This document shows, one piece after another, positions 1 to 3,000 of a stretch of 24,957 nucleotides of DNA. The position numbers were made by a program. Where the stretch lies: the IMG/VR virus record IMGVR_UViG_2711768002_000002, one strand, 5' to 3'. The stretch comes from a virus (Duplodnaviria > Heunggongvirae > Uroviricota > Caudoviricetes). Position 1 is the first letter of the stretch; every line of letters begins with the position of its first letter.

Positions 1-3000
1 AGGGACAGCTGATAGAAACAGAAGCCACTGGAGCACCTCAAAAACACCATCATACACTAAATCAGTAAGTTGGCAGCATCACCAGCCTTCTTGAGGCTAC
101 CACCTGTTTTCAGGTGTCATTCAGACGTGATTTGCCCCAGATTGGGAAAGCACGCTTTTTTCTCAGCTATCGTCCTCTTATTTTGCCGTTACATTTCTTT
201 TTGCATTCTAATGATTAATTTACAATAATAATATCGGTAATTATTGAGTAATAATAAATTAATTATTGCAAATGTAATTTAATTCCATCTTCGCGTTATA
301 TTCCAATCTTTAATCTCCGCATGGAACAAGTTGCATGCGTGACTATATTAAGACGACTTATAACCACCAAAACATTTGCTTTGCAAGCAAAAACAGTGAC
401 CATTGACTCTAAGAAAATTCCGATCTATTGTTAGGGTCATCAAAGTTACTTAACAGTATTCCGAAATGAAAATACAAAGCAAGCTAATTGTCTTATTAAA
501 CATTATTATTGCATTTATATTATTTGAGCTTTTAGCTCAAAAATTTGGTTTGAGTACATTATTTTAAAGCAAGATAAACAATATCGGGCACTCTAGTTTT
601 TATAATTAACAATTAAACGTCCATAAAATGTTATTTACTTTTCTTCGCTATTGTCATATCTTAATATAGTGGCTTACGCCACTCTACTTTCATCACATTT
701 TGTACGTTTATGTACTCGCCATGAAGCTCTTTCATGGCGATTTTTTATTCTTAATCCAAGAACATACTCCCTACCTATAGCAAAATCACTTTTTTAACAA
801 AAGAATAACGTATTTAGGTAATCATTACGAATTTACCCTATAGGTGCTACTGGCCATTCAATATCCGGTGCAGTTGATGTATCAACACGGTTCAGCAACA
901 CCCGATACTTTTTCCAAGCTTCCAGCAACAAGGTTTCTTTCTCCGTTGCGATCTCCAGATCCACAGCATCCTGAAGCGGCGCTATATGCTCACTGGCTAC
1001 CTGCATCAGGCTGTTTTTTGTTTCTTCCGCCTCCCGGATCCGGAACAGTTTTTCTGCTTCCGTATCCTTCACCCAGGCTGTGCCGTTCCACTTCTGAAAC
1101 TCCCCTTCCGGGGATAACCAGGTGACATTTTCCGGTAATGAGCCGAGTTCAGAAATAAATAACGCGTCGCCGGAAGCCACGTCATAAACCGTTTTACCCC
1201 GATGATCTTCAACGAGATGCCACGATGACTCATCACTGTTGAAAACAGCCACGAAACCAGCCGGAATATCTGGCGGTGCAATATCGGTACTGTTTGCAGG
1301 CAGACCTGTATGAGGCGGAATATATGCGTCACCTTCACCAATAAATTCATTAGTTCCGGCCAGCAGGTTATAAATTTTTATGGTCCGTGCTTGTTCACTC
1401 ATTCTGAATGCCATTATGCGAGCCTCACAATATAGTTAAATGCGATGTTTTTGACGGTGTTTTCCGCGTTACCAGCAGCGTTAACGGTGATGGTGTGTCC
1501 ATGTGAACCAATCGCAACAGAGTGCGTATGAGCACCAATACCGACAGTATGCGCGTGTGCACCCGCAGATGCTGCTGTGCCGGACAGTGAGTGTGTATGG
1601 TTTCCTTCTGAAGATGATTTACCTACCCATTGGGAGGTGCCACTGGTTAATGAGCCACTGATACCAACCTGATTAGTCCCGCTAACTTGAGTACTCCCTG
1701 CCGGAAACATTCCAGTAGGTTGACTCCCGCTATTCGTTCTGGGCCCAGTCTGACTATGTTGGTGGGCCCCAGCTGAACTTGTAGAGCCGCTCAGACTGTG
1801 CGTATGCGCCCCGGTGTTATTCGTGGATTTAGTGCCGTAATCAAACGACGATGTGGTTTTCGTCCCCAAATCCGTACTGGATGCGCTGGCGCTGTGGGTG
1901 TGCGATTTAATGCCATCCTGTTCCTGAGACAATACGGCACGACCACTGGCGGGCTTGCCCTTAATCGTCCAGCCACGCATATCAGGGATCACGCCTGACG
2001 GATAAGCGGCTGCAAGTTTCGGGTAAGCAGATTTGTCAAAAGTCTGCCCCTGCATCAGGGCATAACCAGACGGAACGGTATCTGATGGCCACGGGATTGG
2101 TGCACCGACTGGATAAAACTCTGCAGGAGGATGAGCCGAGGTGTAAAGCTGCGCCCACGGCGACCAGTTTGCGTCGGTCGTATCCCGTCGTGAACGAATA
2201 AATGCCGGAGCATGAGCACCGCTTGTACCACTCCAGCCGATGAGTAACTCACCTTCGCCAACGGCTGTCATCCCTTTCAGGTGAATGATATTTCCATACG
2301 CTGTTGGATATCCGTTGTTATACACCTCGTATAACTCAAGACCTGCTGCCCCCTGCGTATTGTCTGTCAGCGCGGCTACCCGACCTTTTGAAGCCAGATT
2401 AACTGATGATACTGCTGTTCCACCTGACGGTAGCGCCCCGATCTCTGATGCCGTTGGCTTATTTCTGGAGTTATAGTCCCTTCGCCAGCCAGGTGAATAA
2501 TCTGTTCCGTGATTAATATAGGTAAACTGGGCGTTGGTTGTTCCGCCACCGCTGGATGTGGTCGGAGTGGTAATGCGGATCGTCATCGCTGACTTTATCC
2601 CCATTACTTCAATGACAGCTCCGGCGAGATGAATATTACCGCAGCCAGTATCAGTAATGATTTTATTATTGCCATAAGACCAGGAACCCTTGCACATCCA
2701 GTATGGATGGTTAAATGCTCCCTGAGAATCCAGCCACTCGATAAACTGTGCAGTCGTCCAGTTTCCTGTTGTTGTGCTTACTGACCCACCGAAGGCACGG
2801 CAGGCACCAATATTTTTCGTAAAGGTGTCTTTGCCAGGGATATCCGCACCGTTCTGATCTTTCTGCAGACGTTTCTCAGCATTGTCATTGGCTGCTTTTA
2901 CTGCCTTTGGCGTTGCCGCCAGCGTTTCAGACGTGCTGTTGGTCGCGCTGCTTAGCTGGATTATCCCTTTCTGTGCTGTCGTTGCATCCTGTGCGGTGTA

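What the first reader, a model, noticed from the sequence alone, without database searches (positions are those of the whole stretch)
1..83. IS1 end abuts the prophage cargo region
The first 83 bp are the IS1 inverted repeat and insA start, oriented so the element extends leftward out of the window. IS1 sits about 750 bp beyond tfa, at the position where lambdoid prophages usually carry accessory (moron or effector) genes. This suggests IS1 insertion or IS-mediated deletion has truncated or replaced cargo here. IS1 abundance, together with the frame breaks seen in J and lom, is typical of Shigella and some E. coli lineages with decaying prophages.
Basis: partly seen in the sequence, partly recalled or inferred. 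Interest (0 to 1): 0.4.

Follow-up and report, generated by a model that had tools for sequence, protein, structure and literature searches.

The report
IS1 end in prophage cargo region
The first 83 bases are one end of the very common mobile element IS1, which sits in the accessory ("b") region of a lambda-like prophage of a Shigella sonnei-type genome and has removed about 740 bp of mostly non-coding DNA; this is ordinary, well-known genome decay.

Summary
Observation confirmed. Window 1..83 is the left end of IS1 (IRL 61..83, insA start at 28, reading leftward), 100% identical to IS1A copies in 4963 of 5426 complete E. coli genomes. It lies 749 bp beyond the tfa stop.

The window is a whole draft contig (CWVF01000062.1), with IS1 at one end and IS2 at the other, so the sequence stops there because the assembly broke in a repeat.

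Positions 1..3042 are identical to complete S. sonnei chromosomes, which carry a full 768-bp IS1 at this junction. That IS1 has no target-site duplication: AGCCTTCTT on one side, CACCCAATT on the other. Other IS1 copies in the same loci do have clean 8-9-bp duplications.

IS1-free relatives include isolated phages mEp332 and ev099 and 831 E. coli genomes. Against them, S. sonnei lacks 743 bp and 79-102 E. coli genomes lack a nested 550 bp, all sharing the same IRL junction. The lost DNA is non-coding: a fossil serU attachment site and the upstream region of a PatE-like AraC regulator gene. That gene survives beyond the IS1 but is frameshifted in S. sonnei.

Nothing here is new.

The parts
1..83 (-). 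Left end of IS1 (first 83 of 768 bp). The rest lies beyond the contig end.
   Evidence: 83/83 identity to IS1A copies in 4963 E. coli genomes. Continuous with a full 768-bp IS1 in complete S. sonnei chromosomes L003-L012.
61..83 (-). IS1 left terminal inverted repeat (IRL), GGTGATGCTGCCAACTTACTGAT
   Evidence: Read directly. Used as the search string that located every IS1 end.
1..28 (-). Start of insA (GTG plus 8 codons, VASVSISCP)
   Evidence: Translation. Identical to the first residues of the 91-aa InsA of the full copy in L008 (Pfam Zn_ribbon_InsA).
84..92 (+). The 9 bp abutting IRL (AGCCTTCTT), the presumed original target. No second copy exists at the other IS1 end in any proxy genome.
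   Evidence: the IRR-side 9-mers, in window orientation, are CACCCAATT (S. sonnei), GCCAATAAG (E. coli O78) and CAGCACCGT (L012). In IS1-free DNA the 9-mer occurs once, at L013 10166..10174.
84..832 (.). Surviving part of the phage b region: AT-rich (31.5% GC) non-coding DNA between the IS1 and tfa
   Evidence: 98.7% identical to IS1-free L013 10166..10914. 97-99% identical in phages mEp332, ev099 and PhiR70_1. GC content. No Rfam family. Only short ORFs.
716..750 (+). Terminator-like hairpin plus T run, convergent with tfa
   Evidence: This is a consensus match only; function was not tested.
833..1414 (-). tfa (tail fibre assembly protein, 193 aa), the last late gene before the b region
   Evidence: ORF. 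Pfam Caudo_TAP_N/Caudo_TAP. Annotated as tail fiber assembly protein.

Best explanation
A complete, ordinary IS1 (IS1A type) sits in the b (accessory) region of a lambda-like prophage, 749 bp beyond tfa, and the window shows only its first 83 bp because the draft assembly broke in the repeat.

Proposed history. Steps 1 and 5 are inferred; steps 2-4, 6 and 7 describe observed states.
1. IS1 inserted at the target AGCCTTCTT (window 84..92) in an IS1-free phage b region like that of mEp332, ev099 or E. coli STEC316.
2. DNA next to the other (IRR) end, including the duplicated target copy, was then deleted while the IRL junction stayed fixed.
3. The loss is 550 bp in the form found in 79-102 E. 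coli genomes.
4. It is 743 bp in S. sonnei: the same 550 bp plus a further 193 bp, which leaves IRR 15 bp upstream of the ATG of a PatE-like AraC regulator gene.
5. The likeliest mechanism is IS1 intramolecular transposition, the classical 'adjacent deletion'.
6. In S. sonnei the regulator gene also has a 1-bp deletion, so it is now a promoterless pseudogene.
7. This IS1 copy also serves as a substrate for IS1 x IS1 recombination. In one S. sonnei chromosome its IRR side is joined to a truncated fimbrial usher gene instead.

The net effect is local decay of prophage cargo, with no new function.
For: - Identity of 1..83 with IS1.
- Source is a whole draft contig ending in IS1 and IS2.
- Window 1..3042 is identical to S. 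sonnei 75/02 (CP019689) and to L012. All ten complete chromosomes fetched share the junction. Organism identity of CP019689 comes from PMC5447701.
- The IS1 there is full length (768 bp) with intact insA.
- No target duplication at this copy in any of 11 genomes. Another IS1 in the same S. sonnei loci has a 9-bp duplication (TACCTAATG), and IS1 copies in L002, L016 and L021 have 8-9-bp duplications.
- Alignment to IS1-free L013: E. coli O78 (L001) lacks L013 9616..10165 and S. sonnei lacks L013 9423..10165. Both resume at L013 10166 = window 84.
- The IS1-free b region is 99% identical in isolated phages, where it lies between tfa and attP-int.
- Counts in 5426 complete E. coli genomes: 831 with the uninterrupted site, 79 with this IRL junction, 102 with the L001-type IRR junction, 0 with a simple insertion plus duplication at this site.
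- S. sonnei shares all four SNPs of the regulator gene with the IS1-bearing E. coli form relative to L013. This fits a nested series, 550 bp then 193 bp more.
- Frameshift at nt 409 of the regulator gene in S. sonnei.
- Alternative IRR partner in L012.
- IS1-promoted adjacent deletions are established knowledge (Reif and Saedler 1975, from memory).
- IS1 is the most abundant IS in Shigella: PMC7373316.
Against: - The DNA left of position 1 in the source isolate itself was never seen. The extension rests on other S. sonnei genomes, and one of ten (L012) has a different partner at the IRR end.
- No genome with the postulated intermediate (simple insertion with AGCCTTCTT duplicated) was found, so step 1 is inferred.
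- The final sequence cannot tell intramolecular transposition from recombination between two direct IS1 copies.
- Whether S. sonnei reached 743 bp in one step or two is not proven.
Confidence: 0.85

Rival explanations
1. The deletion arose by homologous recombination between two separately inserted, directly oriented IS1 copies. One sat at window 84 and the other upstream of the regulator gene. Recombination excised the DNA between them and left one hybrid IS1 with unlike flanks.
For: It gives exactly the same end product: one IS1, no duplication, DNA missing. The roughly 775-bp stretch upstream of and into the regulator gene is hit repeatedly by IS1: four independent sites in L001/S. sonnei, L016, L017 and L021. 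Two copies in one genome are therefore plausible. IS1 x IS1 recombination clearly happens at this copy (L012).
Against: No genome among 5426 has a simple IS1 insertion at either junction, the window-84 site or the L001 IRR site. Two different IRR junctions share one IRL junction, which is the signature of one fixed end with the other end moving. This model would need a separate second insertion for each form.
Confidence: 0.25
2. This is a simple IS1 insertion with nothing lost. The window merely ends inside it.
For: The window alone cannot exclude it, since only one end is visible.
Against: All 11 genomes with this junction lack a target duplication and lack 550 or 743 bp relative to IS1-free relatives. 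None of 5426 E. coli genomes shows the simple-insertion form.
Confidence: 0.03
3. In the source isolate the far side of this IS1 is joined to some other locus, because of IS1-mediated inversion or translocation. In that case what lies beyond is not the PatE-like gene.
For: L012 (LR213458.1) has a truncated usher gene and the yfc fimbrial cluster at the IRR side. 102 E. coli genomes have the IRR junction but only 79 have the IRL junction, so the two sides are sometimes separated.
Against: Nine of the ten complete S. sonnei chromosomes fetched have the PatE-like pseudogene there. Window 1..3042 is identical to both types, so it cannot discriminate.
Confidence: 0.1
4. The 83 bp are an assembly artefact, a repeat k-mer wrongly attached to the contig end.
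For: The contig is a draft scaffold with N gaps whose lengths do not match the real DNA. It also carries a unique 140-bp deletion in J.
Against: The identical junction, base for base, is present in ten closed S. sonnei chromosomes and 79 closed E. coli genomes.
Confidence: 0.02

Closest known systems
IS1 (IS1A/IS1B isoforms), IS1 family
   Same: 83/83 identity to the IS1A end, with IRL and the insA start. In the proxy genomes: 768 bp, InsA and InsB' ORFs, and both inverted repeats.
   Different: Nothing about the element itself differs. This particular copy lacks the usual 8-9-bp target duplication because flanking DNA was deleted.
IS1-promoted adjacent deletions (classical gal-region deletions; Reif and Saedler 1975, cited from memory)
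   Same: One IS end stays at a fixed junction while DNA next to the other end is lost. There are nested endpoints (550 and 743 bp) and the target duplication is gone.
   Different: The mechanism is inferred from end products only. No intermediate was found and no experiment was done, so recombination between two IS1 copies is not excluded.
Lambda b region and prophage morons; PatE (z0321, OI-8/CP-933H) and PsrA/PsrB of EHEC O157:H7
   Same: The gene beyond the IS1 is 246/247 aa identical to Sakai ECs_0287, the AraC-type regulator of prophage Sp1. It is YdeO/GadX-like. It lies between the tail fibre genes and attP-int in phages ev099 and mEp332. PatE is described as encoded on OI-8 (PMC10877973).
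   Different: The ECs_0287 = z0321 equivalence was not verified with a tool, because the PatE paper is not held. In S. sonnei the gene is frameshifted at nt 409 and has lost its upstream DNA, so no PatE-like function is expected there.
IS expansion and genome decay in Shigella (Hawkey et al. 2020, PMC7373316)
   Same: IS1 is the most numerous IS in S. sonnei. Contigs of short-read assemblies end in IS copies, and nearby genes are pseudogenised.
   Different: This IS1 junction is also present in 79 non-Shigella E. coli genomes. The copy was therefore probably acquired before, or independently of, the Shigella-specific expansion.

Membership tests
IS1 family insertion sequence | Terminal inverted repeat of about 23 bp (IRL GGTGATGCTGCCAACTTACTGAT) | tested here: met
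   Window 61..83 on the minus strand, exact match.
IS1 family insertion sequence | insA ORF starting about 55 bp inside IRL (zinc-ribbon/HTH InsA) | tested here: met
   Window 28..1 encodes VASVSISCP, the start of the 91-aa InsA of the full copy. Pfam Zn_ribbon_InsA and HTH_Tnp_IS1 in the proxies.
IS1 family insertion sequence | Full element of about 768 bp with insB' (DDE_Tnp_IS1) and a second inverted repeat (IRR) | tested here: met
   Not visible in the window, which ends at the contig end. Met in complete S. sonnei and E. coli genomes with the identical junction: 768 bp, IRR GGTAATGACTCC..., DDE_Tnp_IS1.
IS1 family insertion sequence | 8-9-bp direct target-site duplication flanking the element | tested here: not met
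   AGCCTTCTT at IRL versus CACCCAATT, GCCAATAAG or CAGCACCGT at IRR. This is explained by deletion or rearrangement of the IRR flank. This is a property of the insertion event, not of the element, so it does not argue against IS1 identity.
IS1-mediated adjacent deletion | DNA contiguous with one IS end is missing relative to an IS-free reference, while the other junction is unchanged | tested here: met
   550 bp (L001) and 743 bp (S. sonnei) are missing next to IRR. The IRL junction is identical in all.
IS1-mediated adjacent deletion | Produced by intramolecular transposition rather than by recombination between two IS copies | not testable with these tools
   The end products are identical. 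No intermediates were found.
Lambdoid prophage b-region cargo (moron) | Located between the tail fibre genes and attP/int in the phage genome | tested here: met
   In ev099 and mEp332 the order is tfa, 1505-bp spacer, AraC regulator, IS3-family fragments, attP region, int-xis. In E. coli prophages the same block ends at ybhB-bioA, the lambda attB side.
PatE/PsrA/PsrB prophage AraC-like regulators | Sequence identity to the OI-8 (CP-933H/Sp1) regulator | tested here: met
   246/247 aa to Sakai ECs_0287 in Sp1. The step ECs_0287 = z0321 (PatE) is inferred from OI-8 = CP-933H = Sp1 and was not checked directly.
PatE/PsrA/PsrB prophage AraC-like regulators | Intact ORF with the C-terminal AraC HTH domain | tested here: not met
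   In S. sonnei a 1-bp deletion at nt 409 gives a stop after 167 codons. The gene is intact in E. coli O78 L001 and in L013.

The most novel reading that the evidence does not exclude
The AT-rich stretch upstream of, and into the start of, the PatE-like regulator gene has been hit by IS1 at four or more independent sites in different E. coli and Shigella prophage contexts: this copy, plus L016, L017 and L021. The most novel reading not excluded is that these hits are selected, either silencing or rewiring a prophage regulator of acid resistance and type III secretion, rather than reflecting only IS1's preference for AT-rich DNA.
Probability: 0.1. Interest if true: 0.35.

Novelty: already known. 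Interest (0 to 1): 0.1.

Why it matters
It matters little beyond annotation. It explains why the contig ends here, shows that the prophage cargo region in this S. sonnei lineage is decayed (promoterless, frameshifted PatE-like gene), and marks this IS1 as a likely breakpoint for chromosomal rearrangements between S. sonnei strains. The comparison also supplies a clean natural example of nested IS1-associated deletions sharing one fixed junction across Shigella and E. coli.

Tried and rejected
- An exact scan of the species-representative genome collection for the 50-bp junction found nothing, so it could not extend the window.
- Looking up the unique 319-aa J fragment showed that the window is a complete draft contig, so no leftward sequence exists in that assembly.
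- Searches for a simple-insertion intermediate at the window-84 site and at the alternative L001 IRR site found none. The single hit was a different IS1 insertion 215 bp away.
- The search for the S. sonnei-type IRR junction in E. coli was uninformative. The tool joined separate pieces, so the count of 131 mixes other arrangements.
- No phage record carries this IS1 junction.
- Rfam on 1..1500 gave only IS009 inside tfa.
- Promoter-like sites in 1..900 are not above shuffled expectation, and no notable repeats were found.
- ARAGORN finds no complete tRNA in the lost segment; it is a 3' fragment only.
- The original PatE paper (PMC3416394) is not held.
- I considered that the AraC gene might be non-phage island DNA, because of the fossil serU site between it and tfa. 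I rejected this because the whole block is carried by isolated phages.

Full report
**1. The observation**

Read on the minus strand, window 1..83 begins with GGTGATGCTGCCAACTTACTGAT, the IS1 left inverted repeat (window 61..83). It continues into the insA start: GTG at window 28..26, then VASVSISCP down to position 1. Megablast of the 83 bases gives 100% identity, E = 5e-35, to 'IS1-like element IS1A family transposase' features in 4963 of 5426 complete E. coli genomes, with a median of 10 copies per genome. The tfa ORF is at 833..1414 on the minus strand, so the IS1 end lies 749 bp beyond it.

**2. Why the window stops there**

The unique 319-aa N-terminal J fragment of the window is on record in only one contig, CWVF01000062.1 of draft assembly GCA_001253535.1. 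Its length is 24957 bp, so the window is the whole contig. The other end of the window (24869..24957) is an IS2 end. The contig contains three N runs whose lengths do not match the DNA they replace in closed genomes. The sequence therefore ends inside IS1 because a short-read assembly broke in a repeat. 'Extending the window leftward' can only be done through related closed genomes.

**3. Proxies for the missing sequence**

The exact Tfa protein is encoded in many chromosomes of 4.7-5.0 Mb. One of them, CP019689, is S. sonnei 75/02 (PMC5447701).

- Window 1..3042 is identical, base for base, to that chromosome and to L012. The only differences are next to an N gap in the repetitive stf gene.
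- All ten chromosomes fetched carry a complete 768-bp IS1 at the same junction, with intact insA and insB'.
- The best complete E. coli genomes are only about 97-98% identical to the window, which fits a Shigella source.

**4. Target-site duplication test**

In window orientation, the 9 bp at the IRL side is AGCCTTCTT (window 84..92). At the IRR side the 9 bp varies:

| Genome(s) | 9 bp at the IRR side |
|---|---|
| Nine S. sonnei chromosomes | CACCCAATT |
| E. coli O78 strain 3 (L001) | GCCAATAAG |
| S. sonnei L012 | CAGCACCGT |

In L012 the IS1 is joined to a truncated fimbrial usher gene.

Positive controls:
- A second IS1 in the same S. sonnei loci has a perfect 9-bp duplication, TACCTAATG.
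- IS1 copies in L002, L016 and L021 have 8-9-bp duplications.

This copy therefore genuinely lacks a duplication.

**5. What is missing**

IS1-free relatives exist at the lambda attB side (ybhB-bioA) in E. coli STEC316 (L013) and strain 181.1 (L014). Alignment against L013 shows:

- E. coli O78 L001 matches up to L013 9615, then has the IS1, then resumes at L013 10166 (= window 84). It lacks 550 bp.
- S. sonnei matches up to L013 9422, then has the IS1, then resumes at 10166. It lacks 743 bp.
- The two forms share the IRL junction and differ at the IRR junction.
- S. sonnei also shares all four SNPs of the adjacent regulator gene with the IS1-bearing E. coli form relative to L013. This supports a nested series: 550 bp, then 193 bp more.

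Counts among 5426 complete E. coli genomes:

| State | Genomes |
|---|---|
| Uninterrupted site | 831 |
| This IRL junction | 79 |
| L001-type IRR junction | 102 |
| Simple insertion with duplicated AGCCTTCTT | 0 |
| Contiguous simple insertion at the L001 IRR site | 0 |

No phage record has the IS1 junction.

**6. Nature of the lost and neighbouring DNA**

The IS1-free 1505-bp spacer between tfa and the next gene is 99% identical in isolated phages mEp332, ev099 and PhiR70_1. In those phages the order is tfa, spacer, AraC-family regulator, IS3-family fragments, attP region, int-xis.

The lost 550 or 743 bp contains no convincing ORF. It does hold a 3' fragment of tRNA-Ser(CGA) (serU) at about L013 9994..10055, plus about 280 bp that in L002 is the yodB-serU spacer next to a serU-integrated prophage. 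ARAGORN finds no whole tRNA there. This is a fossil attachment site carried inside the b region.

The regulator is YdeO/GadX-like. It is 246/247 aa identical to ECs_0287 of Sakai prophage Sp1, the OI-8/CP-933H element on which PatE (z0321) is encoded (PMC10877973). The ECs_0287 = z0321 step is my inference.

In S. sonnei the IS1 IRR lies 15 bp upstream of the regulator's ATG, so the native upstream region is gone. A 1-bp deletion at nt 409 gives a stop after 167 codons. The gene is intact in E. coli O78.

Beyond the gene, S. sonnei has IS3-family fragments, a 385-aa integrase, tRNA-Arg(CCT), an FNT-family gene and mlaA. This is the argW neighbourhood.

**7. Mechanism**

Shown:
- A complete IS1 in the proxy genomes.
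- No target duplication at this copy.
- Nested deletions next to IRR, with a constant IRL junction.
- A pseudogenised neighbouring gene.
- An alternative partner at the IRR side in one strain.

Inferred:
- An original simple insertion at AGCCTTCTT.
- Subsequent IS1-promoted adjacent deletion by intramolecular transposition. This is established behaviour of IS1, cited from memory.

The main rival for the deletion step is recombination between two direct IS1 copies, which would give the same product. It is plausible because the region is a repeated IS1 target. Four independent sites lie within about 775 bp: this one, L016 (8-bp duplication), L017 (no duplication) and L021 (9-bp duplication inside the gene's 5' end). 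It is less parsimonious, because it needs a separate extra insertion for each deletion form and no intermediate was found. The region is AT-rich (31.5% GC for window 84..832 against 54.5% for the window), which fits the known IS1 target preference (from memory).

**8.

- lom is 160 aa in the window and in closed S. sonnei genomes, against 199 aa in E. coli. That truncation is real.
- The J break is a 140-bp deletion between 10-bp repeats (window 7512..7521). It is absent from the closed genomes, where J is 1165 aa, and its product is unique to this contig. It may be strain-specific or an assembly artefact.
- IS1 is the dominant IS of Shigella (PMC7373316). However, this particular junction is shared with 79 E. 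coli genomes, so it is not specific to the Shigella expansion.

**9. Verdict**

It is an ordinary instance of a well-known process: IS1 in a decaying prophage of S. sonnei, with an IS-associated deletion of non-coding cargo-region DNA. No gene was replaced and no new element or mechanism is involved. Novelty: already known. Interest: low (0.1).

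Noticed in passing
window 24869..24957: The right end of the window is an IS2 terminal sequence (98-99% identical to 'IS3-like element IS2 family transposase' features in more than 4000 E. coli genomes). Both contig ends are therefore IS ends.
   Followed up: yes
window 3074..3194, 9328..9760, 10088..10207: N runs of 121, 433 and 120 bases replace 209, 389 and 287 bases of real DNA in closed S. sonnei genomes, so they are scaffold gaps of estimated size. The few mismatches to closed genomes cluster at 3043..3070, next to a gap in the repetitive stf gene.
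   Followed up: partly
window 7459..8418 and 5061..7565 (J), break at 7512..7521: The J frame break is a 140-bp deletion bounded by a 10-bp repeat, relative to closed S. sonnei genomes in which J is an intact 1165-aa ORF. The resulting 319-aa product is on record in this contig only. It could be strain-specific or an assembly artefact.
   Followed up: partly
window 873..1071 (-): Rfam family IS009 (RF02111) matches at 218 bits (gathering score 117) entirely inside the tfa coding sequence.
   Followed up: no
L013 9716..10055 (lost from the window's lineage); L002 6814..7150: The IS1-free phage b region carries a 3' fragment of tRNA-Ser(CGA) (serU) plus about 280 bp of the chromosomal yodB-serU spacer. 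This also holds in isolated phages mEp332 and ev099, which integrate elsewhere. It looks like a fossil attR with host DNA picked up by an ancestor integrated at serU.
   Followed up: partly
L013 7879..7962; L020 3470..3553; L008 13561..14954: The phage b region ends with 84 nt that are the 3' end of an intS-like integrase gene, followed by IS3-family (ISEc48-like) fragments. In S. sonnei the same 84 nt are continuous with a full 385-aa integrase next to tRNA-Arg(CCT), an FNT-family gene and mlaA. There the tail end of the lambda-like prophage is therefore joined to the argW locus rather than to ybhB-bio as in E. coli.
   Followed up: partly
L016 4473..5240; L017 4538..5305; L021 2293..3060: Independent IS1 insertions hit the same spacer and regulator-gene start in Sp1/CP-933H-like prophage remnants at paoD-yagP. 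One has an 8-bp duplication (AGATTTTC), one has none (joined to the corA region), and one has a 9-bp duplication (CTGAACATG) inside the first codons of the AraC gene. The region is a recurrent IS1 target.
   Followed up: partly
L003-L011 about 12115..12857 (beyond the window): The PatE-like AraC regulator gene is a pseudogene in S. sonnei: a 1-bp deletion at nt 409 with a stop after 167 codons. Some strains also carry a P77L change.
   Followed up: yes
window 467..568 (+) and 716..750 (+): A 33-codon hydrophobic ORF (MKIQSKLIVLLNIIIAFILFELLAQKFGLSTLF) is followed about 150 bp later by a strong terminator-like hairpin on the same strand, convergent with tfa. It is conserved in the phage relatives, and its function is unknown.
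   Followed up: no
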